Of a stretch of 64,000 nt of DNA, positions 4,191 through 58,073 are shown one piece after another; the stretch's first letter is position 1; every line of letters starts with the position of its first letter. Origin of the DNA: Amoebidium appalachense (lineage: Eukaryota; Protista; Ichthyosporea); the NCBI GenBank assembly GCA_963693365.1, contig CAVNZM010000013.1:1637817-1701816 (forward strand), written 5' to 3'. The notes under the pieces were generated by a model, which was not told where the DNA came from, did not search any database, and worked only from the letters and a program-made list of their open reading frames with translations. A program made the translations under genes and the position numbers.

Positions 4191-4305
4191 TAAACAACTG
4201 TACACACATGTTTACTAAAGAATGTGATCTATTAGCACACGATTTGTGCTTTGTCATGAATATCACATAAATTTTATGTCCGCACCAATAGGACTCACTC
4301 TGACC

Positions 4306-4725
4306 CAGGGTTGGGCTGGGGTTCGCCAGCTTAACCGTATCGCCCTTTGGCCAATCGTAACGGACAATTTCTTAATCGTAACGGGTGGGTTCTTGGGGAG
4401 CTGCAAAGCATTATAAACGCTTAAATGTGTAATTTTCCTTAATTTTTTTCAATATTTCTGTTCAAGAACAGCAGATTCCCCCCCAAGAACTTATCTTCAG
4501 TGCTTCTCATGTGCAATATCGAGCCCCGATAAGTTTCCAGGGCTTGTAATCTTGCGGTACTCAATTTGTAAAAACACGTATTTTGAGTTTTGCGACTGGA
4601 GGGGTTTAGGCGGGGCTTGCAGCTCCCCAAGAACCCATCCGTTACGATTAAGAAATTAAGAAATTGTCCGTTACGATTGGCCAAAGGGCGATACGGTTAA
4701 GCTGGCGAACCCCAGCCCAACCCTG
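4306..4725. mobile_element. MITE / non-autonomous DNA transposon with ~100 bp terminal inverted repeats
   Basis: 4306-4406 (cagggttgggctggggttcgccagcttaaccgtatcgcc...gagctgcaa) is the near-perfect reverse complement of 4617-4725, which carries one extra 8-nt aagaaatt. CAGGG termini; no coding capacity; no TSD seen. Confidence 0.85.
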
Positions 4726-5211
4726 GAATTCAATAACCATATATGACTAGTAATGCCACGCTCTGCCGAGCTTTGGCTCAACGTCGAAGCGAGACGAGAA
4801 TATTCTGGAAGGCGCTGTGTGCGTGTGTGCCGTGTTGGAGGGAGGGCAGCAATTTGAAGGGGAAAAAAAAGGACTGTTTGGATATTTTTTTTTCTCTTTG
4901 TCTGTATCCTGCCTCCCCCCCCCCCCCCCCCCCCCCCCCCTTCCCCGCACCCCCCTTTTTTTCTCTCCCTCCCCCCTCCCCCCCCCCCTTCACTTCTGCC
5001 CCCACTCGCGGTCTTTTTCCCCTTTCTTCCCCCTCCTCCCCTTACTCTCCCTCCCCTTCCTCCCTCTGCCTTCCCATCTATTCCCCTTTTCTCCTCCTCC
5101 CCCCCCTTCCCCTCTCTCGTTTCCTCCCCCTCTGTTGGAAGATGGTATCGTTATCCAGTCCGATCGCATGAATCAGATCATGATCGGCTGGTGGCCTGCG
5201 AGATCTTAACC

Positions 5212-5284
5212 GATCTGTAGCTCAGTTGGTAGAGGCACTCGACCGGAGATAGAGGGGTCGCGGGTTCGAATCCCGTCGGGATCA
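5212..5284 (+). ncRNA. tRNA-like sequence in TRIM 5' LTR (anticodon position GGA; not a canonical tRNA)
   Basis: A box tagctcagttgg, B box ggttcgaatcc, acceptor gatct..gggatc, followed by T6. C at position 33, anticodon-stem mismatch and small indels. Confidence 0.7.
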
Positions 5285-5590
5285 TCTTTTTTCTCATCCT
5301 CTTCTCGCTGGGCCCGGGGTAAAAGCCAGCACGCCTTTACTGGCGTTACTATGATCACAACCATCGGCAGTGGTTAGGTTGTGATCTCAAGGCTAGCAAG
5401 ATCGCTAGTCTCTGCACCAGGACAAAATTCAATATGGTAGCATGAACAGGGGTTCAGTGGGGACTGAGGGGGCAGTCCACCCTAACCTGATTCTACGATT
5501 CGTCCTGAGTGGGGATGTTGGAAGATGGTATCGTTATCCAGTCCGATCGCATAGATCATGATCGGCTGGTGGCCTGCGAGGATCTTAACC

Positions 5591-5663
5591 CATCTCGTAG
5601 CTCAGTTGGTAGAGCACTCGATCGAAGATAGAGGGGTCGCGGGTTCGAATCCCGTCGGGATCA
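5591..5663 (+). ncRNA. tRNA-like sequence in TRIM 3' LTR (anticodon position GAA, Phe-like)
   Basis: catctcg tagctcagttggtagagc a ctcga tcgaaga tagag gggtc gcggg ttcgaat cccgt cgggatc a folds as a cloverleaf; T6 follows. Confidence 0.7.
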
Positions 5664-5891
5664 TCTTTTTTCTCATCCTCTTCTCGCTGGGGTAAAAGCC
5701 AGCACGCCCTTTACGTAATACTGGCGTTATCACAACCATCGGCAGTGGTTAGGTTATGATCTCAAAGCTAGCAAGATCGCTAGTCTCTGTACCAGGACAA
5801 AATCCAATACCCTCCCCCCTTTTTTTGTGTATGTATGTATGTTTGGCTGGCCCCAAATTTACCCAGAGAGAGAGAGAGAGAGAGAGAGAGT

Positions 5892-9489: not shown

Positions 9490-12248
9490 ACACACCCACC
9501 ACACCATAATGATTGACCTCGTGGCAAACCACCCCGTCGGTGCATTCCGAAGGTGGTGCAAATAGTCAAGAACGGGCAATACGAACTCAGCCAGGTGGTG
9601 GCCCACACCACCCACAACGGGGAGGCATGGGTCAAAATAGCCCACCTACGGGACAACACATAGGAGGAGGGGCTGAGATGGCACCGACCCACGTGGAACG
9701 ACCCACATGGAACAGCCCATTTCCGCTTTTGCCCCGGTGACTGCAAATACGGCCACTCCCCATGGAACCTGGCCTACACCCCGGCAACCCTCTCCCCCAG
9801 CCCCGGGTACGCAGACGGAGAGGGGGAAAGGTCAGACACGGAGCCAGAATCGGAGTCGACGGGGCCCAGCGACGACTCCGACGACTCAGAGGACTCTAGC
9901 ACCGACAGCACCAACAGCAAATACGAGCCCCCTCAGCCCCCAGCCGATAACCACACCCACAACAAGCAGTATACATGTGTGGGGTGGACCCGTGCTGTAG
10001 AGGTGATACGGGCAGACCCCTACGTGGCCTTCAAGACCCGAATCACCACCCACACGGTAGTTGTCCCGAAGTACCACAAGGACTTCATCAACACCGACAG
10101 CATCGACATCTACCAAGTCATCGCACTGAAGGATGGCTCCGATCCGGCCGAGCAGTGGTCCAGGAGGAAGATACACCATTTGCGGCGGCATCAGTTCCCC
10201 CCCACCAACAGGCATCACCCCAGATATGCTCCACCTGCAAGCCAACGAGGACGCCACACCCTTGCCGGGGGACCTCCCCGGTCCATCACCCCCCCAGCAG
10301 CCACCACCGGTAGGGTCACCACCAGGACATAAGTGCACGGCCCACCCGGCTGACCTGCCGAGCCCACCCACTCCCCGTAGGCTCACCTACACCGACTTGG
10401 TGCCCCAGGCCACCTACGACGAGTGGCAGCAGCAAATCACCCTGCTTCCCCCAGACCAACCGATCACCGTTTATACGGACGGCAGCCTCATTCACTGACC
10501 GGGCAGGAGGATAGCCCAGGCCGGAGCGGGGGCTGTGCTGGACACCCTGGACCGGAAAGCACCTCCAGTGACGGCCAAGACCAGGCTCCATACGGCCCTA
10601 TCATCCACCCAAGCCGAACTCACAGGGGTACTACTAGCCCTCCTGCTCACCCCCACCACCACCCCCGTACACATCAAGCTCGATAACTTCGGAGTAGTCG
10701 ACCGATGGAGGGGCAAACATGAACCCCACCACACCCCCTCGACGTAAGCTAAAGTTCCCCCACATAGTGGAATGGGCTCATGTACGAGACCAACTCTCCC
10801 TACGGCAACCAGGCTCCGTACAGGTATCGTGGGTGAAGGGGCACCAATCCAACACCAAAAGGTACGGTCAACAGAATAACGAGGCAGACAAGGCAGCCAA
10901 TGCAGGAAGAGCCCTCCCCCTCCCCCCCCCCCCCCCCCACCTCCGGAAGAGCCCTCCCCCTCCCCCCTCCCCCCCCCCCCCCCCACCTCCGGCCCTGGGG
11001 GGGGGGGGGGGGGGGGGAATACTTCCTACAACTACAAGGCCACCGTATCCCCGGCAATATTCCCGGTACACTGAACCGGTTGAACAAGGACTTCCTCACC
11101 GACATGGCCGGCAAGACCAAGGCTATGTCCATACAAGCCGACCCCAGACTGCTCCCAGCCGAACGGAACCCCATCAAGCTCAACAAGGGGCCCGCACAGG
11201 CAACCATCGGGGCCGTCAGAGGCAACATTCGTAGCTTGTCCCTGGCTATGGGCACCCTGCCTACCATGACACGGCTACACCGAGATCTCCCCACCGTCAT
11301 TCAATATGCACAGCCCACATGCCCCCGGTGCAGCCAGCACCCTGAGACCACCACCACCCACCTCTGGGCCTGCCCGGCCCATGCCGGGGAGGTCCCCGCC
11401 CTCAGGCTGACCACGGCCATCACAGCCTGCATCCACAACGTCCTGCACACTCGTCATCCAAACACCCCCACGGCACAGCACCACCATACGGCAGTCACGG
11501 TGGTAGACCAATGTGCATGGATAAACTGGATAGGAGGCAACGGTGACCCACCAGACCCTGAAGACATCAATTGGGTCGAACGGGGATTCTGCCCACGATC
11601 GGTGGGCCCACTACTTGCAGCCACCGGCACCACAAAGACCACCACCCGGGCCATCTTAGGAAAAATCACAGTAGAGTTGCAGTCCTTTTTCTTTTTAAAA
11701 ATTTGGCACCCACGGAACACCGGTCCCCCACACACACCCGGCCAGCCTGTCCGGACTGCCGGAACACACACAGACCCAGTGTGCCCTGTAAAATTCACCT
11801 TTTAGTTCACAAAAACTGGCATCGCCACAACATACGTACAACAACACATACTATTAGTAATGTTAGGCAGCATCCCCCCCCCCCCCCCACCACCACCACC
11901 ACACCCCATCATCCACCCATACCCACCGTAAATACTATACACAACACTTGGACTTCCCAATACTGTAGATCGACCAATGAGAGCCCTCGGTCAACGTTTA
12001 TTGTTAGGTTTTGAATGGAGGGGAGGACTGGAGCCTCCTGCCGGCGTGGCTGGGAGTAGTAGCCCTGGGCAAAGTGTGTACTTATAGTTAGGTTGTGAAG
12101 GATGGGTTAGCTTAGCTGAACTCATAGACTAGCACCTTAACTAGTGTACTGTCGGTGCTGTGTGGTAGACGGTAGTTTCCCTAGAGGGCCTGAAAAGGCC
12201 CTCCGGGAACAAAACGTGATAAAAAAAAATAAAAAAAACAAAAAAAAA
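9490..12248 (+). mobile_element. 5'-truncated, decayed non-LTR retrotransposon (LINE) retaining RNase H and C-terminal zinc finger
   Basis: RNase H motifs VYTDGS, STQAEL, IKLDN, VSWVKGH, NNEADKAA (~10470-10905) are broken by stops and frameshifts. LPTMTRLH..CPRC-x9-HLWACP zinc finger at ~11260-11380. A-rich tail 12221-12248. 16-bp direct repeat ctggtgtcctgaggtc at 9474-9489 and 12249-12264 is the likely TSD. No RT domain remains. Confidence 0.82.
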
Positions 12249-16052: not shown

Positions 16053-20336
<4,284 letters not shown>

Positions 20337-37672: not shown

Positions 37673-38521
37673 TTATGCAGCGTGCTCCTTTGTAATAGAA
37701 GCCATAAGCACGCTTGGGTTAAACTTAGACACAGCCACCAAGCCGTTTGAATAAAGCGTGCGGCTGAGGGCGCGGGGACGACGACCCATGGTCTTTTTCT
37801 GCTCGTCGGCGAAAATATACGGGTCGGCAAGCATAACGAGCGAGTGAGCAACATTTGCCAAACACCAGATGGAGGCATGGCTGTCAGAGAGAAGACCCAC
37901 GGTCCACGTCGTGGTAAGCACGGCAGAGTGCACGATTCCGGGGAGGAGGTGGCGCGGGGCAGTCATGTATGGGTAGACCATGCCGAGAAGGAAAAACACG
38001 CGAAGGGAGAGCGGGATTTCGGTCTGGGCCTCGCCAAAAAAGTGGTGTTTCATCCAGCACGCGTGGTTTCCGTTGCTACCGTGCCCGGCAGTAATCATAA
38101 GATGCCCGGCGGGGGTAATGATAGTGCACGCCGGAGAGTCACACATGGAACCCATCAGACCGAAGACCTTGTTGGGAATGCCCGGGAGCATCGCAAACGT
38201 GAAAATGTAGACGGCAATCTCGCGCCACGAAGGCATCTGTCTTTCTGCGAGCGCCCGCCCGGCCAGGGCGCCCATGGGCTCTAGCGCGATGATTGTAAGG
38301 CCCCACCGGCTGAGCCACTTGTTCGTGGACGAACATGTGTACATGTCTTCGTGTGTGGAGAGGAGCCAGAGGGAGGCGTCCACCCACTGCATCGTGCCGA
38401 AAACAGCGAGGAAAACGGCGTTCCAGCGGTCACGGGGTGTCTTGTTGCGCCTCCAGAGAAGAGGAACGATCATGTAGACCATGGTGCCAGTGGCAAGGGA
38501 AACTTCGAGCGACCAGCACAT
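37673..38521 (-). CDS. Intronless multi-pass membrane protein (282 aa), DUF5765-like
   Basis: Long clean ORF with several hydrophobic helices. MCWS..VS start, MQWVDA.LW, C...N...S, LEP and SIWC motifs resemble a family I recall from giant viruses and bacteria; assignment is from memory. Confidence 0.7.
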   Translation of the reverse strand: MCWSLEVSLATGTMVYMIVPLLWRRNKTPRDRWNAVFLAVFGTMQWVDASLWLLSTHEDMYTCSSTNKWLSRWGLTIIALEPMGALAGRALAERQMPSWREIAVYIFTFAMLPGIPNKVFGLMGSMCDSPACTIITPAGHLMITAGHGSNGNHACWMKHHFFGEAQTEIPLSLRVFFLLGMVYPYMTAPRHLLPGIVHSAVLTTTWTVGLLSDSHASIWCLANVAHSLVMLADPYIFADEQKKTMGRRPRALSRTLYSNGLVAVSKFNPSVLMASITKEHAA

Positions 38522-40285: not shown

Positions 40286-40894
40286 TGTGGTATATTATAC
40301 CGGATATCTAGTATGGATGTACACAGGTTGAGATATACGCACACGTGTACATGTATATATACCACTGTGTTTGATCTTAGGTAGGCCAGTATGCATGTCT
40401 CCCCCCAGTCTTGTGCGCATGAGCAAGAAGTTAAACATATGTGCACGTGCAGCTTGCAGAACTATTCATGGGAAAACAGATATAATAGTCACATGGGACC
40501 GACACGTAGTAGAGGAACCATGAGCGTTAAGTTATAGTTTTATCATGGGAAAATATGCAAGTAGCCGTGAGGTATGACTGTGGAATGCATCGATAGTCAA
40601 GTACTGTCACCCGATTGGCTCACTAAGTTTATTGGAACCGTGATAGCCATGGGACAGAACCGTGAACCGTATGTGATTGGCTCGTAGCCAAAAAGCACAT
40701 ACCGATGCGCATGTCTGAGCCGCTGTGCGAGCTCCGATATAAGGGCATGTCGGGGGCTTCAGAGCTCACTCAGTGTGCTCGGCTTACTAGGTGTAAGTAG
40801 GACTAGCACGTAACTAAGCAAAGCGTGGTCTAATCAACCCCGTTCATTTATAAACATATTGTTTGTCACAGACACACGATCATATTATACAACA
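40286..40894 (+). repeat. 5' LTR of chromovirus (TATA-like tataag at ~40738)
   Basis: Identical to 47403-48011 except for two substitutions seen by eye (taatc/tagtc and cattat-type atatta/atagta). Confidence 0.95.
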
Positions 40895-40910
40895 GCTGAG
40901 CTACACCCCC
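40895..40910 (+). promoter_or_regulatory. Atypical primer-binding site
   Basis: gctgagctacaccccc directly follows the LTR. It lacks the TGG start; its reverse complement gggggtgtagctcagc is a tRNA-Ala-type 5' end. Confidence 0.7.
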
Positions 40911-41690
40911 TGCAGCGCTAGTTCTTGCGCTGCAAGTGTGCTCGTATCAAGCAAGTACTATGTTTTTAGTTGTTTGGGTTCTAACATGTCTAACCACCTT
41001 GGTGACGACAATGCCGGCCCTAGCGGCCTGCATGGGGGGGAAGCTAGAAACGCCGACCTCATTTTCCTTGAAGAACTCGGCTATAATGTTCCCCTCTCCC
41101 CCCCCCGGCGCTTCACCGTGGCACCCTCCTGGAGCAGACATTCCGTTGCTCGACCGTGTCTACTTTCGTTCACACGACTTGCAACACGACAATCAATACT
41201 GCTTCTCTTTTCGTTCAGGGGAAACCGACTACGGCCAATCATTTGACCCCGAAGACCTGCCACCTGAGGACAATCGACATTCATCAGTCGACCTTCTCCA
41301 CGGGCTGGAAGTCGAGGTCAACGCGAACGCAAGCAGAGGCACCAGACGCCCTGGTACGCGCCCTAACGGAGTATGCAAATTTGCACAACAAGACGGGCGT
41401 GAGCCTGGCAGCTTGGTGCTGGTGCGTTCTTGGGTGTCTCCTTCTGTTCATGCTGCTGGCATTGTTGGTATCGAAGTTTGCCAGCTGTACAGCGCGCACG
41501 GCACTGTACCGTTCGTCGTCGGCACTCACCATGCTCCACCAACAACTACTCGCCCTCGCGAATGTATTCACTTCCAGGCAAAACTACGCGTGCCTTTCAG
41601 GGCAGTCTTCCCACATCACTAAGTCACATGAATTTATCAATCAGTTAGTGGCTCTTAGTCGTGGTGAGCTCGACCTAGTGGTTACTTATT

Positions 41691-42866
41691 ATGGTAACCG
41701 GGGCCCTCGAAAATTTCATCCAAGCATGCTCCCCTCGTGGGTTCGTGCCGGACGGGGCCCCCGTAAGAACTCTGGCCGAGGTGGTAGGGGTGGGCGTGGT
41801 GGTGGCCGGGGGGGGGCATAACAACCCCCCTCCTGCTGCCAACGAAAATGGGGATGGTAATTCAGGTGGCGGCGCCCCCCCACCTCCCCCGGACGGTGGT
41901 GCTGACGGTGGTGCCGGTGGTGCTAATGGTGCCGGAGGTGCTAACGGTGCTGGTGGTGCCGGTGGTGGTGGTGGTGATGGCGGTGGCGACGGCGGTGACG
42001 GTGGTGATGACGGTGACGGTAACGACGGCAACGGTGACGACCGGGAGGGGAAGGAAAAGATTCAACACATCCCCTCAGCAGCAATTCAGTCCCGTCCTAT
42101 GCTCGAGGCAGATGCCGATATCGACGAATTCTACAAACAACTCCAACATCATTTGATTTTCTTTTGTATTATGGAGTTGGTGGGCTTAAATCGCACATTG
42201 ATGTTTATTCGTATGTGCATGGGCCCCGGGGACCCCCGAGATGCTGCCGATAACGTCGACCTTTCCACGTGCACCGGCATCGACGATTTTTGGGCTAAGT
42301 TCCTTGAGAAGTATTTAGACAAGGAACGTAAGGAGGAGCATTTAGACGAGCTGAACAAGCTTCGTTTTATGCACACTCGGGCCTCGATAAAGACATTCCA
42401 CAAGAAATTTAATCGCATCGTCTCCAACACGGGTCTCAAGAACATGCCCGAGGTTGTGCTTCATCATTACCAACGTACCCTCAACGACTACCCGGACCTT
42501 TGTTCGGAGGCCCGGGCTGCCACCACCCTCAAGCAAGCCATGGCCCGTGTCATCCGACGGTATGAGGCTGATGTGGGTGCTCACAATTTAAAATGTAACC
42601 GTAATGTGGGTGCTGTAGATGAGATGGGTGGTGGTAGTGGGGGGCATGGTGGTGGTGGTGGTGGTCACGGGGGTGGCCACGGAGGTAGTGGGGGTAATGT
42701 TGGTGGTAAGGGTAAATCTAATGGGGGAGGTAAATGGGCTAAGGAAGATAAAAAGAAAGATAAGAGGGGGCCCAATTGTTGGGCATGCAAGCAGCCGGGG
42801 CATCGTTTTAAAGATTGCCCCACCCGAGCTGCCAAGAAGAACAAGGGCAAGCAAAGTGAAAAATAG
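41691..42866 (+). CDS. gag: Gag (capsid-like region plus CCHC zinc knuckle); true start may be upstream at ~40987 via frameshifts
   Basis: CWACKQPGHRFKDC knuckle; DDFWAKFLEKY and SIKTFHKKFNRIV resemble retrotransposon gag motifs; Gly-rich linkers. Confidence 0.85.
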   Translation: MVTGALENFIQACSPRGFVPDGAPVRTLAEVVGVGVVVAGGGHNNPPPAANENGDGNSGGGAPPPPPDGGADGGAGGANGAGGANGAGGAGGGGGDGGGDGGDGGDDGDGNDGNGDDREGKEKIQHIPSAAIQSRPMLEADADIDEFYKQLQHHLIFFCIMELVGLNRTLMFIRMCMGPGDPRDAADNVDLSTCTGIDDFWAKFLEKYLDKERKEEHLDELNKLRFMHTRASIKTFHKKFNRIVSNTGLKNMPEVVLHHYQRTLNDYPDLCSEARAATTLKQAMARVIRRYEADVGAHNLKCNRNVGAVDEMGGGSGGHGGGGGGHGGGHGGSGGNVGGKGKSNGGGKWAKEDKKKDKRGPNCWACKQPGHRFKDCPTRAAKKNKGKQSEK

Positions 42867-45800
42867 GTAATTGCCGGTGCTGAATGCACGGATACGGCAT
42901 GTATTGCACATTGTGACCCAGTGGGTCACGAAAAAGTAATTAAAAATGTGCCTATACCACGTGCTTCTGCCCCGGCTTCTTCCGATATTCCCCCCTCCGA
43001 GCCCCCTTCCCCCGACCCCCGACCCCCCACCCCCCCACACCTATCCCCCCCCACAAAGAAACTTCGAACACTCGATAGAATAAGAAAAGTGTTCGATATA
43101 AGTGCCATATGCAATGCAGGAAGACGTATCTATGTTAATGTTACGTTGAGTAATGAAAAATACTTTGCATTGTTTGACACTGGGGCATCATTCACGGTGG
43201 TTAGTGAAGCTGTTTTTTCCCGACACATGCAGGAGTTTGCTTTGCAACCCTCGGATGTGATTGTTACTTCTGTAAGGAAAAACGATAAAGCTCTAGCTGT
43301 GAGTGGTGAAGTAATGCTCCCGTTATGCCTCGGTTCTCAAACATTCATGTGGCCTTGCTTAGTAATTAAAAATATTAAGCATGACATGATTATTGGGAAC
43401 GATTTTGCCAACAAACACATTGCCACCACTAATCATCAAGCACACTCACTAACACTGGTGTCGGCAATGGTGGTGCCGACGTCATCTTTGCACACCCCCT
43501 ACACAATGTGTCCTGTTACCGTCAAGCACGACACCACCGTCAAATCTGGCTTTGGATGTGTATTACGTGCAACGGTGCAAGTGACTGCTGCTGCTGCTGC
43601 TGCTGGCACCCTCGGTATCTTCGAGCCTACTCGTGAATTTCGAGATAAGTTCCCCCCCACCATCTGTGAAATTAGTGTGGATAAATCTATTGCTGTTGTG
43701 TGCGAAAATGGTGTGGGTCCGGATTTGAACGTGTTCGGTACCATCGGTCATTTCGTTCCTACGAGCCGACATGAGTACATACACGAACTGAGTGTTTTGC
43801 AAGCCGAACCCCACCCCAGTCGTACACAAACCGTCGTTGGTGCAATAGCGCAGTGCATCAGGTGGGCAACGGGGGGTGGAGAAGGTTGCCTACCCAATTC
43901 ACCTCCGGCCGTGCCACCGGGCCGGGTGCCTACCGATAACATGTGTGGGCACAAAGGGCATGTAAGTGGGACACGAGGCGGTCCGATACACTCACCGATC
44001 GACCAATCAATGTGTGCCGTTGATCATGAAAAACCCCCCCGCGAAAAATTTCGGAAATTTCGGGTGGGGGTGCACACGATGCCGGCCAGGCTCCCCACGG
44101 TTTTGATTGGAATAGGGTGCCTCAGAGTATGCTTCCGGATGTCAAGAAACTATTAGAAGCACACGCTCGTTGCTTCATCACTACGGACCCCGACGAATTT
44201 CCTCAGATTAAAGGATTCACCATGCACATAGACACGGGAGATAACCCACCGATTCGATTAAAACAGTGGAGGTTGGAACAAGTGAAAGAGCAGGCTGCAA
44301 AGGAGATCGTGGAGGATATGTGTCGTAGAGGGCAGATGGAACAAGCACACAGTCAGTATAATTCACCCACCTTCGTAATACGAAAACCAAACGGAAAATA
44401 CCGTCTCCTGACTGATTTTCGTGCTCTTAACAAGCAAATTCGAAAATCTGCCTGGCCCATGCCCAACTTGCAACAACAAATAGAGAAGTTGGCTGGGTAT
44501 AAGTATTTCTGTAAAGCTGATATGTCGGGTGCCTTTTACCAAATACTGCTAGACGCTGAGTCACGTGAAAAAACAGGATTTTCTGTGGCTGGTGTGCAGT
44601 ATCGTTATTGTGTGGCACCACAGGGGCTAAGTACTTCCCCGTCCCAGCTAGCATCTATCATGACACAGATTTTGGCCCCTCTGGCCGATGACGTGGTGGT
44701 ATATGCCGATGATTTAGCTGTGGGTGCACACACCGAAAAAGAATTAATACAGAAGCTTGACCGACTTTTCACCCGTCTCGGTGAATATGGAGTTAAGCTC
44801 GATGGGGCAAAGACATACATTGGGCTCACGGAAATACCGTTTTTGGGTTGGATTGTAGGTGTGAATGGCATTCGGCCCGACCCGAAAAAGGTTCAGGCAG
44901 TGAAAGATTGGCCGATACCAAACACACTACATCAACTCCGGGGTTTTCTGGGTATTACTTCGTATCTCCGCCGTCACATTTTAAATTATGCAGAGCGAGC
45001 CCGGCCCATGAATGCCGAGTGTTACGGAGAAAAACACCGACGGTTAAAATGGACGGACGAATTAGATCGCTCGTTTAAAGATTTAAAATCGGCGTTATCA
45101 GAGGAAGTGCTTGCCCTGCCCGATCTTTCCCCCACGGGGGGCCAGTTTCTTATTCGTTGTGATGCTAGTCGGTTCTCGGAAGGGGCTTGCCTGTATCAAA
45201 AACAAAAAGATGGCAAGTTCCGCACGGTGGCATATGCCTCCCGGATGTTTCAACCTACCGAACGTAGGTGGAGCAACATCGAACGAGAAACGCATGCAAT
45301 CTATTGGGCACTGAAAGAGTTTAGGGTGTACGTGTATGGTCGAGTGAATACTATTGTGGAAAGTGACCATAAGCCCTGTCTTTCTCTTAAAGGTGTCAAA
45401 CGGATAGCAAACGAACGGATGCAACGGTGGGCTTTGGAAATGCAGGAGTATGATTTCGATCTATACTACCGTCCTGGCCCTACCATGCACGATGCTGATG
45501 GGTTAAGCCGTATAGGATATATTCTGCATGAGAACGAAAACATACCACTGGAAAAGTGGGATGTGAAAAAGGAATTACAAGAGGTTCTCACAGCAGATTT
45601 ATCCGAGCTTAGCTCGAAACCAGCCGAAGTGTTTGTTGATTGGGGTGATGCACTCGAATTCACACATATTTTCGATCCAGACCGCTTGAAATGTGCACAA
45701 ATTTCTGCACTCAGTCAAGCCGGCCTGCCCTCCCTTTCTGCACTCGGTGGTGCCGGCTACCAGAAGGAAGCAATTATGATGGCACAGGGGGGGGACAAAA

Positions 45801-47362
45801 TGTGTAAGGATATAATCACGTGGCTCCGGTGGCTTGCCTCCCTCGATGCCGAGGCCAAACGGGAATGGCAGGCAGGGGGGGGACGAGCTGCACACGGTCT
45901 TAATCTTGAGTATTTCGGATACAAAAAGGTTAAGAAAATAGCACAAATGTGTGTGATAGAGGATGACGTGCTTTATCATGTGGCTAAGGATGGTCGTCGT
46001 TGCCTGTATGTGCCCGAAATTCTTCGTGCTGATTTATTAAGAAGTGTGCACAACGGGGGGGCTCATACTGGCATTGAACGAACTTACGAAAGATTATACA
46101 ATTACTTATTGGCCACGCATGCACAAAGATATCACTGCTTATGTGAATGCCTGCACACAGTGCCAAGGCCGTAACGATAACCCACACTTGAGAAGTAGGC
46201 CATTTGAACAGAGATACGAAAATTTAAAAATGTTCTCTCGTGTTTCTGTTGACCTTATGGGTCCGTTCACAGAAACGAAAAATGGTAATACTTTCATTTG
46301 TGTGTTTATGGATATGGCAACGAAGTCTTTAATCACTGTGCCCATCCAATCTAAGCATGCCGTTAATGTTGCACATGCACTCATGAATGTAATTTGCTAT
46401 ATACACGGCCCCCCTCGTACACTCTTGAGTGATCAAGGATCAGAATTTCTCAATGAGCTAATTGTTGAGATTTGCCGTATAGCAAATATTGCACAAGTGA
46501 GCACCTCTGCATATCACCCACAAAGCAACGGTTCCAATGAACGGTCTCATAGATTTATTAATAATGCACTCTCAAAGTACGTTAATTATGAGCACACTAA
46601 TTGGGACACTCTGTTGCCGATGGTTACACATGCATACAACACAACAACACACAAAATTTTGCAATGTACACCGTATTATCTTGTGTACGGGCAAGAAGCA
46701 ACACAATTCCCTGACGTTGCCCTTCTTAGCAGTAACCACCCGGCACTCAAGGACCCAGAGTGGAAGGCATACCGGCGAGAGTTACTAGCCCGTCTGCCTC
46801 TGCTCCGTGCTGTGGTCGGCAGCAACGTGCCGTACGAGAGCCCCCAGGCCCCTCGGTGGCTCGTGAATTTAAGAAGGGTGCACGGATTCGTGTTCGGAAT
46901 CAAGCCAAAAATATCGGTGCCTGGGATGTACGGTGGATTACGGGTTACGAAATCGTCAAAAGGGTCGGCCCGGTCACGTACGAGATCCGAAGCTTAGCAA
47001 CTATGAAGAAATCTAAGTGGCACGTGGACGATATTCAGCTTGAATTGAGTGAGCAAAATAGAATTCGGCCTCAAGATCTCTCTCACCTCCCGGACACGGG
47101 CGATAGTCACAATTTCAACAAGGTTCTGCCGGACGAGTGGGTGGTGGAAAAGGTGCTTGACGTAAGAATTCAGAAACGGCGCAAGCAATCCACCCCTTAC
47201 AAGTGGTACCAGATCAAGTGGGCAGGCAAAGATGAATCATTCACCTCTTGGGAGTGTGAGAAAGACTTAGCCTGCCCGGACAAGATCCGAGAGTTCCACC
47301 AACGCAGAGGTGACCTTGCATCGTTCCACGGATACATTGACTCATTGTGTGGAGCATGGTGA
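42867..47362 (+). CDS. pol: Pol polyprotein (protease, RT, RNase H, integrase, chromodomain), split by ~3 frameshifts (~44035, ~46100, ~46820)
   Basis: PR ALFDTGAS and IIGNDF; RT YRLLTDFRALN, APQGL, YADD; RH CDAS, ERETHAI, ESDHKP; IN H-H-CC, SVDLMGP, SDQGSEF, YHPQSNGSNER; chromodomain EWVVEKVLDVR..YQIKWAG.DESFTSWECEKDL. Confidence 0.93.
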
Positions 47363-47402
47363 CGTATGTCGAGGACGACATACTTCTTTTTACGGTGGGG
47401 CG

Positions 47403-48011
47403 TGTGGTATATTATACCGGATATCTAGTATGGATGTACACAGGTTGAGATATACGCACACGTGTACATGTATATATACCACTGTGTTTGATCTTAGGTA
47501 GGCCAGTATGCATGTCTCCCCCCAGTCTTGTGCGCATGAGCAAGAAGTTAAACATATGTGCACGTGCAGCTTGCAGAACTATTCATGGGAAAACAGATAT
47601 AATAGTCACATGGGACCGACACGTAGTAGAGGAACCATGAGCGTTAAGTTATAGTTTTATCATGGGAAAATATGCAAGTAGCCGTGAGGTATGACTGTGG
47701 AATGCATCGATAGTCAAGTACTGTCACCCGATTGGCTCACTAAGTTTATTGGAACCGTGATAGCCATGGGACAGAACCGTGAACCGTATGTGATTGGCTC
47801 GTAGCCAAAAAGCACATACCGATGCGCATGTCTGAGCCGCTGTGCGAGCTCCGATATAAGGGCATGTCGGGGGCTTCAGAGCTCACTCAGTGTGCTCGGC
47901 TTACTAGGTGTAAGTAGGACTAGCACGTAACTAAGCAAAGCGTGGTCTAGTCAACCCCGTTCATTTATAAACATATTGTTTGTCACAGACACACGATCAT
48001 AGTATACAACA
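47403..48011 (+). repeat. 3' LTR of chromovirus
   Basis: Direct repeat of 40286-40894, followed by the TSD CCCAG. Confidence 0.95.
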
Positions 48012-49546: not shown

Positions 49547-49620
49547 GGCCGCGTGGCCAAATTGGATAAGGCACCTGACTACGGATCAGGAGATTGCAGG
49601 TTCGAGTCCTGCCGCGGTCG
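49547..49620 (+). tRNA. tRNA-Arg(ACG)
   Basis: ggccgcg tg gcc aaattggataa ggc a cctga ct ACG ga tcagg agatt gcagg ttcgagt cctgc cgcggtc g forms a full cloverleaf; T5 terminator immediately downstream. Confidence 0.96.
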
Positions 49621-56666: not shown

Positions 56667-57614
56667 GGACAACCATCTCCGATAGCATTTGGCGATGTGA
56701 CTGTGACATTACATTGCGGCCCCACGTCAAGACACAGTAAGGTTGAAAATGAAAAATTGGAACGAGAGCGAATGATGGCGTAACCAGTAGAAGAGAAAGC
56801 TGAAGCGAATGGCAAAATATCTGTGTATGTGCGCCTGTGCTGGGGTTGGTTGGGGGGGGGGGAGGAGGGGTGGGAGGGCGGGGAAGGGAGGGGTAGGAGG
56901 TTTACGGACTGGGTAGAGGCTTCAAGTATGTATTGGCCCAATGGCTCGTTTTACTGTATGGCTTCTTGTGGGCCTGGTGCCCACCTATTGGCCACAGTGC
57001 AGAATAAGAAACTGAATAAAATAAAAAGAACGGAGAAAAACTATATGGCTATGTCTGTGTGTGTGTGGGGGGGGGGGGGGGGGGGGGGGGGGGAGGGCAG
57101 AGGTAATTTTTTTAAGAAAACCACACGGCCATCTAGAGAGTACACGGCCATCTAGAGACTCTCTAGATGGCCGTGGACAACCATCTCCGATAGCATTTGG
57201 CGATGTGACTGTCACATTACATTGCGGCCCCTCGTCAACACACAGTAAGGTTGAAAAATGAGAAAATGGAACGAGAGTGAATGGTGGCGTAACCAGTAGA
57301 AGAGAAAGCTGAAGCGAATGGCAAAATATCTGTGTATGTGCGCCTGTGCTGGGGTTGGTTGGGGGGGGAGGAGGGGTGGGAGGGCGGGGAAGGGAGGGGT
57401 AGGAGGTTTGCGGACTGGGTAGAGGCTTCAAGTATGTATTGGCCCAATGGCTCGTTTTACTGTATGGCTTCTTGTGGGCCTGGTGCCCACCTATTGGCCA
57501 CAGTGCAGAATAAGAAACTGAATAAAATAAAAAAAAACGGAGAAAAACTATATGGCTATGTCTGTGTGTGTGTGGGGGGGGGGGGGGAGGGGGGAGGGCA
57601 GAGGTAATTTTTTT
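56667..57614. repeat. ~445-bp tandem duplication (56667-57113 and 57175-57614) with a palindromic junction
   Basis: Near-identical copies beginning ggacaaccatctccgatagc; the spacer contains cacggccatctagaga-c-tctctagatggccgtg. Confidence 0.9.
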
Positions 57615-58073
57615 GAGTCCCGACAGCCGGGGCGGGGGGGGGAGAGGGCGCTGAGTTGCCATTGGGGGGTTGTGGAAGGGGGGGAGGGGTTCGAAGTAAA
57701 ATAAGTTTCTCGAAAATCCCATCCTCCCCCCCCCCCCCCCCTCCCTCCCCCATTATATAATCGCCTTCTTACAACAGTGCTACGTTATGGTGATCCCTCT
57801 GTAATCCCTCCCAGGAGCTTTGAAAAAGGCTGTGTGTATGTTTCTCTTATCGGTATGCCCGTGCAAGGTGTGAGTTTGTGTTGTGTCTTTTGTCCCTTTC
57901 GCTCTCGTGTGTGGGTGTGGGTGTGGCTGTTGTGTGTGTGTGTGTGTGCGTGTGTGTGTGTGTGTGCGTGTGTGTGCGTGCGTGTGTGTGTGCGTGTGCT
58001 TGTGCTTGTGCTTGTGCGTGTGTGTGTGTGTTTGTGTGTTGGGGGCAAAAGCCTGGGAGGAAGGGGGCAGGAA

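What the first reader, a model, noticed from the sequence alone, without database searches (positions are those of the whole stretch)
5133..5809. Miniature LTR retrotransposon whose LTRs each carry a tRNA-like gene
Seen: two ~300-bp LTRs (TGTTGGA...CAATA), a PBS starting TGGTAGCA, an 81-bp internal region with a ggactg/cagtcc hairpin, a PPT, a 5-bp TSD CCCTC, and a cloverleaf with A and B boxes inside each LTR. Known: Cassandra TRIMs carry 5S rRNA, and I recall tRNA-bearing TRIMs (Helenus) described from fungi, animals and plants. TGGTAGCA matches the initiator-tRNA 3' end. Inference: a SINE/LTR hybrid using an internal Pol III promoter and a helper (TGTTG ends and an iMet primer suggest copia-type), possibly a new or independent lineage in this host group. 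It would be misannotated as two tRNA pseudogenes.
Basis: partly seen in the sequence, partly recalled or inferred. Interest (0 to 1): 0.85.

Follow-up and report, generated by a model that had tools for sequence, protein, structure and literature searches.

The report
tRNA-bearing mini retrotransposon in Amoebidium
A 677-base, gene-less jumping element in Amoebidium, a single-celled relative of animals, carries a tRNA look-alike in each end repeat and is likely copied with enzymes borrowed from another retrotransposon; it is a new host for a kind described in 2024 (Helenus), not a new kind.

Summary
Observation confirmed: LTRs 5133-5434 and 5516-5809 (277/284 identical), 81-bp interior, iMet-type PBS, short PPT, TSD CCCTC, and a tRNA-like unit in each LTR. 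The window's RAD51 exons match Amoebidium (Ichthyosporea). Runs of three coded organisms hold a homogeneous multi-copy family with other flanks, and joints skipping exactly element plus one TSD, so this is no simple duplication. It meets the structural definition of Helenus TRIMs (PMC10886601), whose host table lists only fungi, animals and one plant. This scan has noted the kind in at least 13 other genomes, none naming Amoebidium. The cloverleaf keeps its acceptor, D and T stems and a T-run, but has a broken anticodon arm. It likely serves as both Pol III promoter and leaky terminator, so it would define the repeated RNA ends. A Copia helper is likely; the neighbouring Gypsy has a different primer site. 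Transcription, primer and helper are untested. Verdict: new member of a known kind; interest 0.4.

The parts
5128..5132 (+). left target-site duplication CCCTC
   Evidence: empty-site joints skipping 682 bases in runs X1 and X5
5133..5434 (+). 5' LTR, 302 bp (family majority about 289 bp)
   Evidence: collapsed unitigs
5133..5211 (+). predicted U3: hairpin-forming stretch upstream of the tRNA-like unit
   Evidence: fold (z -1.08, not significant); the U3 label is inferred from the Pol III model
5212..5284 (+). tRNA-like unit of the 5' LTR (A box 5218-5229, B box 5263-5273, anticodon loop CCGGAGA)
   Evidence: Rfam RF00005 33.3 bits; boxes
5287..5292 (+). T6 run, Pol III terminator-like (T5 in the collapsed family unitigs)
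   Evidence: one T left out in X17, X7 and X12
5293..5434 (+). predicted U5, about 140 bp with several short hairpins
   Evidence: folds (z -0.44 and -1.17, not significant); label inferred
5435..5442 (+). primer-binding site TGGTAGCA, abutting the LTR; complement of the last 8 nt of animal-type tRNA-iMet
   Evidence: published PBS
5461..5478 (+). interior hairpin GGACTG/CAGTCC (packaging or dimer signal not shown)
5507..5515 (+). short polypurine tract
5516..5809 (+). 3' LTR, 294 bp
   Evidence: its private variants and right junction are read without a difference in X1 (5776-5856) and X5 (5719-5838)
5591..5663 (+). tRNA-like unit of the 3' LTR (A box 5598-5609, B box 5642-5652); ARAGORN calls it tRNA-Phe(GAA)
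5666..5671 (+). T6 run of the 3' LTR, predicted end of the full-length RNA
   Evidence: role inferred
5810..5814 (+). right target-site duplication CCCTC

Best explanation
This is one copy of a multi-copy, gene-less miniature LTR retrotransposon of the Helenus type in Amoebidium, likely transcribed by RNA polymerase III from the tRNA-like unit in its 5' LTR and likely copied and inserted by the enzymes of a Copia-type helper. Shown: the anatomy, the family, other insertion flanks and the 5-bp duplication. The inferred steps are these. (1) TFIIIC binds the A and B boxes, and Pol III starts just upstream of the cloverleaf (about 5205-5212). (2) The T5-T6 run behind the cloverleaf is the terminator, helped by the acceptor stem folding next to it. 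Most transcripts would stop in the 5' LTR as 80-90 nt tRNA-like RNAs. A fraction would read through and stop at the same run in the 3' LTR, giving an RNA of about 450 nt whose repeated ends (R) are the cloverleaf plus oligo-U. (3) Host tRNA-iMet primes at the 8-nt PBS, the strong-stop DNA jumps via R, and the PPT primes the second strand. (4) A helper integrase inserts the DNA with a 5-bp duplication. The tRNA-like unit is unlikely to decode (C at position 33, a G-A mismatch in the anticodon stem, a Ser anticodon on a short-arm body), and it is not the primer.
For: Anatomy. Family: 20 of 24 listed runs, 3 coded organisms, 4 studies. Collapsed unitigs that run LTR-interior-LTR in X17, X7, X12 and X5; the same 7 listed substitutions against the 3' LTR in all 4 runs; other flanks at the LTR start (5511, 5515, 5516) and end (5807, 5818). 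Empty-site joints in X1 and X5. Rough depth ratios, which the tool says are no copy number, suggest tens of LTRs in X5 (945-1085 against 19 at this junction) and about 200 in X1 (6000 against 31). Stems in the 3' copy: acceptor 6/7 (7/7 with the majority G at 5591), D 4/4, T 5/5, anticodon 4/5; T8-A14, G15-C48, G18-T55, G19-C56 and T54-A58 present. The host tRNA-Arg gene is followed by T5, then T4. By eye, 26 of the 26 complete rust-fungal Helenus LTRs in supplement part 1 of 11 have exactly T4 right behind the tRNA-like unit. In yeast, T4 is weak unless a hairpin such as the acceptor stem lies next to it, and T6 does not pause every polymerase. Neither TATA nor AATAAA occurs in the TRIM LTR, whereas the neighbouring Gypsy LTR has a TATAA motif. 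Helper: a PBS abutting the LTR, an iMet primer and a 5-bp TSD describe GalEa Copia elements. Of 71 metagenome loci with a CAACA end abutting the full iMet PBS, 37 had an ORF of 200 aa or more to scan; 8 of 37 (about 6 distinct) were Copia-type and 0 were Gypsy-type.
Against: No transcript start, end or polymerase was observed; no listed run is RNA on record. T6 (this copy) or T5 (majority) should stop most polymerases in the 5' LTR, so the model needs read-through that is not shown for this host. T4+ runs are not significantly scarce in the unit (1 observed, 1.1 expected). The family is so homogeneous that it shows no covariation, so the intact stems may only reflect recent capture of a tRNA gene. 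The 26 fungal LTRs are related and were counted by eye; 2 wasp LTRs (Helenus-2_SyJa, -2_SyUm) lack the T-run. The PBS match is only 8 nt (8 of the 12 GalEa bases) and rests on human and fly tRNA, not the host's. iMet is also used by most plant chromoviruses, so PBS and TSD do not exclude a Gypsy helper, and no Copia was shown in Amoebidium. 29 of the 37 scanned loci were unrelated, mostly bacterial genes.
Confidence: 0.68

Rival explanations
1. An ordinary Pol II-transcribed TRIM. The tRNA-like unit is a passenger (a captured tRNA gene or SINE head) or binds TFIIIC only as an insulator, and the RNA ends are set elsewhere in the LTR.
For: A T5-T6 run directly behind the promoter would end most Pol III transcripts within the 5' LTR. 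About 140 bp of LTR lie behind the cloverleaf, room for a Pol II R/U5. Kojima states that Pol III function is unvalidated for Helenus.
Against: No TATA or AATAAA in the LTR. Boxes and stems are intact in the family majority of three organisms. The whole element fits the size limit argued for Pol III units. Cassandra is transcribed from 5S in one LTR to 5S in the other.
Confidence: 0.17
2. The cloverleaf is a processing signal. Host RNase P (and RNase Z) cut at both copies and release a unit-length RNA of about 370 nt, perhaps circularised, which is then reverse-transcribed. This is the retrozyme route with tRNA enzymes in place of a hammerhead.
For: The acceptor and T stems, which these enzymes read (recalled), are kept while the anticodon arm decays. 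Diverged fungal Helenus also keep 6-7 of 7 acceptor pairs with different sequences (by eye). Retrozymes use a cleavage motif in each LTR and accumulate circles (abstract).
Against: The circular unitigs occur in runs guessed to be DNA or of unrecorded kind (X5, X12, X7) as well as in the run guessed to be RNA (X17), so collapse of identical LTRs explains them. A hairpin-assisted terminator explains the acceptor stem with no extra step. RNase Z cutting at the inner copy would destroy the repeat.
Confidence: 0.1
3. The LTRs supply a working tRNA or the element's own primer.
For: ARAGORN calls the 3' copy tRNA-Phe(GAA). All four arms can pair.
Against: The GAA loop is private to this copy; the majority loop is CCGGAGA with C33 and a G-A stem mismatch. 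The cloverleaf's 3' end shares only TGGT with the PBS, and the best match to the PBS complement inside the LTR has 2 mismatches in 8.
Confidence: 0.03
4. A local tandem duplication of a tRNA pseudogene, or an assembly artefact.
For: Low-complexity flanks and a high indel-to-substitution ratio between the repeats (8 to 7).
Against: Other flanks, empty-site joints, and independent contigs that read this copy's right junction without a difference. PBS and PPT lie exactly at the repeat borders.
Confidence: 0.02

Closest known systems
Helenus (TRIMp3 with tRNA-derived LTR sequence), Kojima 2024, PMC10886601; closest in anatomy are the rust-fungal families primed by the iMet 3' end, such as Helenus-4_PSt and Helenus-5_PSt
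   Same: Under 1 kb, two LTRs each with a tRNA-like unit and A/B boxes, PBS starting TGGTAGC at the LTR edge, PPT, 5-bp TSD, TGTT start, tens to hundreds of copies, discordant anticodon, no self-priming.
   Different: The host is an ichthyosporean; Table S1 lists Basidiomycota, six animal phyla and Selaginella only. Animal Helenus have 4-bp TSDs and Gypsy-type PBSs, so this animal relative follows the fungal/plant pattern. The cloverleaf sits in the first half of the LTR with about 140 bp behind it, whereas in the rust-fungal LTRs read it lies near the 3' end. No sequence match outside the generic A-box motif.
Cassandra (plants) and Ajax (nemerteans), TRIMp3 with 5S rRNA-derived LTRs (PMC10886601, PMC7215508)
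   Same: A Pol III promoter module inside each LTR; Cassandra has an iMet PBS, and its RNA runs from one module to the other.
   Different: The module here is tRNA-type; Rfam finds no 5S match.
GalEa clade of Copia LTR retrotransposons (PMC5445492, PMC3587641), as the candidate helper type
   Same: TGT start, iMet PBS directly behind the LTR, 5-bp TSD; proposed to date back to the opisthokont ancestor.
   Different: Autonomous, 5-7 kb; the PBS match here stops after 8 of 12 bases; no such element was shown in this host.
LTR retrozymes (PMC4918200)
   Same: Non-autonomous, about 300-bp LTRs, each with a structured RNA motif.
   Different: No hammerhead here (Rfam to E=1); the interior is 81 bp, not 600-1000 bp.

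Membership tests
Helenus | TRIM: under 1000 bp, two LTRs, no coding capacity | tested here: met
   677 bp, LTRs of 302 and 294 bp, 81-bp interior
Helenus | [quoted passage not shown] | tested here: met
   Rfam 33.3 and 50.5 bits; motifs present in both copies (definition)
Helenus | PBS complementary to a tRNA behind the 5' LTR | tested here: met
   8 nt match the iMet-type PBS in print; the host's own tRNA-iMet was not available
Helenus | PPT before the 3' LTR | tested here: met
   8 of 9 purines at 5507-5515; short, like those in the supplement
Helenus | 4-6 bp target-site duplication | tested here: met
   5 bp for this copy, with empty-site joints in 2 of 4 runs; TSDs of other copies could not be paired
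Helenus | interspersed multi-copy family | tested here: met
   other flanks and high-depth collapsed unitigs
A catalogued Helenus family | sequence homology to a Repbase or Data S1 consensus | tested here: inconclusive
   1 of 6 exact motifs hit, once, and that was the generic A-box stretch; line breaks can hide hits; no alignment search of Repbase or Dfam was possible
TRIMp3 | transcribed by RNA polymerase III | not testable with these tools
   only contigs were available; no starts, ends or strand
Cassandra / Ajax | 5S rRNA-derived sequence in the LTR | tested here: not met
   no 5S hit at E up to 1
LTR retrozyme | hammerhead ribozyme in each LTR | tested here: not met
   no hammerhead family hit at E up to 1
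tRNA-derived SINE (SINE2) | single 5' tRNA head and a LINE-type 3' tail | tested here: not met
   the tRNA units are internal and doubled, and the ends are LTR termini
Copia (GalEa)-dependent element | an autonomous partner in the host sharing PBS, termini or interior sequence | not testable with these tools
   no host genome held; the window's Gypsy shares no sequence (best E 2.2) and has another primer site

The most novel reading that the evidence does not exclude
The tRNA mimic is the cutting signal, not just the promoter. Host RNase P/Z cut at the two cloverleafs and release a unit-length, possibly circular, 370-nt RNA that the helper reverse-transcribes, so Helenus elements would be retrozymes that outsource cleavage to the tRNA-maturation machinery. 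This would explain why acceptor and T stems are kept across Helenus while the anticodon arm decays.
Probability: 0.1. Interest if true: 0.8.

Novelty: new member of a known kind. Interest (0 to 1): 0.4.

Why it matters
It extends tRNA-bearing TRIMs to the unicellular relatives of animals. The element has the fungal/plant signature (5-bp TSD, iMet primer) rather than the animal one, which supports repeated independent origins. Pol III transcription has never been validated for any Helenus (PMC10886601), and Amoebidium grows axenically and has a mapped methylome (PMC11244446), so the promoter and terminator model can be tested directly here. The T-run and paired acceptor stem behind the promoter, which that paper does not discuss for Helenus, give a concrete prediction for where the RNA starts and ends. 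In practice, tens to hundreds of these LTRs will inflate tRNA gene counts in this host.

Tried and rejected
No host genome was held, so genome-wide BLAST, solo-LTR and TSD counts, the host tRNA-iMet and the helper search could not be run. No second copy lies in the window. An exact 24-nt LTR pattern found 0 loci in metagenome contigs. An 18-nt pattern gave 5 viral loci, none extending beyond 18-21 nt, so chance. No RNA holder listed; X17 is only guessed to be RNA, and its circular unitig is matched in X5, X7 and X12, so it was not used as evidence of expression or of circles. An intronless ORF (37676-38521, minus strand) gave 5 unnamed homologues and no Pfam family, so it did not identify the host; RAD51 did. 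Self-priming by the cloverleaf or a Tf1-type fold-back: rejected. The neighbouring chromodomain Gypsy as helper: no shared sequence, different primer site. Folding z-scores of the LTR parts and the interior were not significant; the predicted 471-nt transcript had z -2.3 with 1 of 100 shuffles as stable, too weak to build on. Scarcity of T-runs: not significant. A methylation signature in the LTR changes: by eye the differing bases are mostly transitions but not at CG, so not pursued. The joint in X3 (5123 to 5820 with 18 other letters) does not fit the empty site and was set aside as a paralogous flank.

Full report
Observation. The element spans 5133-5809. The LTRs (302 and 294 bp) share 277 of 284 aligned bases, with 7 substitutions and 8 indel events. 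The interior is 81 bp, and CCCTC lies on both sides. Rfam places a tRNA at 5212-5284 (33.3 bits) and 5591-5663 (50.5 bits), both above the gathering score; ARAGORN accepts only the second, as Phe(GAA). A regular expression for A and B boxes finds 3 sites in the 64 kb: these two and a true tRNA-Arg gene at 49547-49620. Each cloverleaf is followed after two bases by T6, the only T4+ runs on the element's + strand. The interior hairpin forms but is not unusually stable. The TSD lies in a C/T-rich flank (4 of 96 five-mers on the left), so it needed outside support.

Host. A RAD51 exon (17013-17159) gave 2 hits among 5 candidates, the best 100% identical. Its accession is EukProt Amoebidium parasiticum. 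That protein tiles the window in 9 pieces between 16053 and 20333, three of them fully identical and the rest with mismatches that probably come mostly from overrun into introns. I take the host to be Amoebidium (Ichthyosporea), at genus level.

Family. No genome was held. 20 of 24 listed sequencing runs, of three coded organisms and four studies, hold part of the element. I laid 6 of the 24. In X17, X7 and X12 the family collapses into one unitig running LTR-interior-LTR, with a unit of about 370 bp (LTR about 289, interior 81), and X5 shows the same joint. The 7 listed substitutions against the 3' LTR are the same in all 4 runs, so the family is homogeneous. Loose ends show other flanks at the LTR start (5511, 5515, 5516) and end (5807, 5818); one flank is shared by X1 and X7. 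Contigs in X1 and X5 join 5129 to 5812, skipping 682 bases, exactly the element plus one TSD. The X1 piece has many gaps in low-complexity sequence and may come from a paralogous flank. A different joint in X3 does not fit and was set aside. Other contigs in X1 and X5 read this copy's right junction without a difference, so the copy is not an assembly artefact. Depth is no copy number, but single-unitig depths against this junction suggest tens of LTRs in X5 (945-1085 and 354 for the interior, against 19) and about 200 in X1 (6000 against 31). Family alignments stop at 5807, so the majority differs at 5808. A C there would give a TG...CA element with a 6-bp inverted terminus; this is inferred, not read. 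With 7 of 284 substitutions this copy is older than the neighbouring Gypsy (99.7% over 610 bp).

The tRNA-like unit. In the 3' copy the acceptor stem pairs 6 of 7 (7 of 7 with the majority G at 5591), D 4/4, T 5/5 and anticodon 4/5, and the usual tertiary bases are present. The majority loop is that of the 5' LTR, CCGGAGA: C at position 33 and a Ser anticodon on a short variable arm. The Phe call is therefore an accident of this copy, and decoding is unlikely. The unit's 3' end shares only TGGT with the PBS, so it is not the primer, as Kojima found for Helenus. The collapsed unitigs have T5 instead of T6; the host tRNA-Arg gene has T5, then T4.

Mechanism. I propose that the unit is a whole Pol III gene, promoter plus terminator. 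Most transcripts would end in the 5' LTR. Those reading through would end at the twin run in the 3' LTR and carry the cloverleaf at both ends as R, as Cassandra does with its 5S unit. The support is indirect. By eye, 26 of the 26 complete rust-fungal Helenus LTRs in supplement part 1 have exactly T4 behind the tRNA-like unit and mostly paired acceptor stems of differing sequence. Most wasp and plant LTRs in part 9 have a T-run too, but two do not. In yeast, T4 terminates only with an adjacent hairpin such as the acceptor stem, and T6 does not pause every polymerase. The Helenus paper uses 'terminat' only for Cassandra. Against the model: T5-T6 is a fairly strong stop, T-runs are not significantly scarce elsewhere, the fungal LTRs are related, and no RNA end was seen.

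Primer and helper. TGGTAGCA equals the first 8 bases of the iMet PBS printed for human tRNA and for GalEa Copia elements, which also have the PBS directly at the LTR, a TGT start and 5-bp TSDs. As a general test, 71 metagenome loci carried a CAACA end abutting the full PBS. 34 had no ORF of 200 aa or more downstream and were dropped; of 37 scanned, 8 (about 6 distinct) had Copia domains, none had Gypsy RT, and the rest were unrelated genes. This favours Copia but does not locate the helper in Amoebidium, and most plant chromoviruses also use iMet. The intact-looking chromodomain Gypsy in the window shares no sequence with the TRIM and has another primer site.

Comparison with what is known. 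The element meets each structural criterion of Helenus. Table S1 lists Basidiomycota, six animal phyla and Selaginella, and no protist. Helenus is defined by structure and thought to be polyphyletic, so membership implies no common descent. Of six exact motifs searched in the supplement, only the generic A-box stretch hit, once. Searches for a prior report: Helenus+Ajax+LTR retrotransposons+tRNA (4 papers, 3 listed), Amoebidium+transposable elements+LTR (10), Ichthyosporea+copia+retrotransposon (6) and TRIMp3 (only Kojima relevant). The Amoebidium genome paper has no 'tRNA', 'SINE' or 'copia' in its text or its two held supplements, and no 'TRIM' in those supplements. Its RepeatModeler library, Repbase and Dfam were not visible and may hold the family unlabelled. 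Earlier notes of this scan report the kind in 31 findings from at least 13 other genomes, diatoms among them, and none holds the word Amoebidium; these notes are unchecked.

What I saw of each paper. PMC10886601: main text parts 1-4 of 6, passages, supplement parts 1, 9, 10 and 11 of 11, and a term search of the whole supplement. bioRxiv 2021.08.27.457903: abstract and sections 12 and 17. PMC4918200: abstract. PMC7215508, PMC11244446 (plus a supplement term search), PMC13570524, PMC5445492, PMC3587641, PMC1797187, PMC6317226 and bioRxiv 2026.05.21.726589: passages only. Recalled, from no call: that U33 is nearly invariant and Ser tRNAs have a long variable arm; that RNase P and RNase Z read the acceptor and T stems; standard tRNA numbering; the steps of LTR reverse transcription beyond those given.

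Verdict. A real, multi-copy Helenus-type TRIM in a new host lineage, with a testable promoter-terminator model. New member of a known kind; interest 0.4.

Noticed in passing
window 40286-48011 (+), primer-site region 40895-40910: Young chromodomain Gypsy element (LTRs 609 bp, 99.7% identical, TSD CCCAG; protease, RT, RNase H, integrase and chromodomain). The 16 bases behind its 5' LTR are complementary not to a CCA end but to what looks like the first 16 nt of tRNA-Ala(UGC): in 6 of 99 viral loci with that motif ARAGORN finds a tRNA starting there, all Ala. No good self-priming match in its LTR (2 mismatches in 10). PMC6317226 lists only whole tRNA, half tRNA and self primers, so priming by a short 5' tRNA fragment would be unusual and deserves its own follow-up.
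   Followed up: partly
window 4305-4726: MITE-like 422-bp stretch with inverted ends of about 105 bp, 92% alike; no TSD looked for systematically.
   Followed up: no
window 4745-4880 and 5028-5132: The flanks left of the TRIM are themselves repeated in the sequencing runs (many contigs with loose ends), so the TRIM probably sits in another repeat.
   Followed up: no
window 16053-20333 (+): RAD51 gene in nine tblastn pieces matching the Amoebidium protein; the intron positions look like those of human RAD51 (recalled, not tested).
   Followed up: partly
window 37676-38521 (-): Intronless 282-aa hydrophobic ORF with no Pfam family and five unnamed homologues at 37-79% identity; odd in an intron-rich genome, possibly of viral or lateral origin.
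   Followed up: partly
window 9664-11805 (+): Fragmented ORFs with an RNase H hit (E 1.4e-4), probably a decayed non-LTR retroelement.
   Followed up: no
window 49547-49620 (+): tRNA-Arg(ACG) gene with T5 and T4 runs downstream.
   Followed up: partly
window 56667-57617: Tandem duplication of about 450 bp at 95% identity.
   Followed up: no
PMC10886601 Data S1, Helenus-2_SyJa-LTR and Helenus-2_SyUm-LTR: By eye these two wasp LTRs lack the T-run behind the tRNA-like unit and carry a hammerhead-like core instead, which would make them tRNA-promoter retrozymes; not run through any tool.
   Followed up: no
L015, L026, L038, L048, L063, L066, L068, L073: Copia elements in metagenome contigs with an iMet PBS abutting the LTR end; L068 is complete with its second LTR.
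   Followed up: partly
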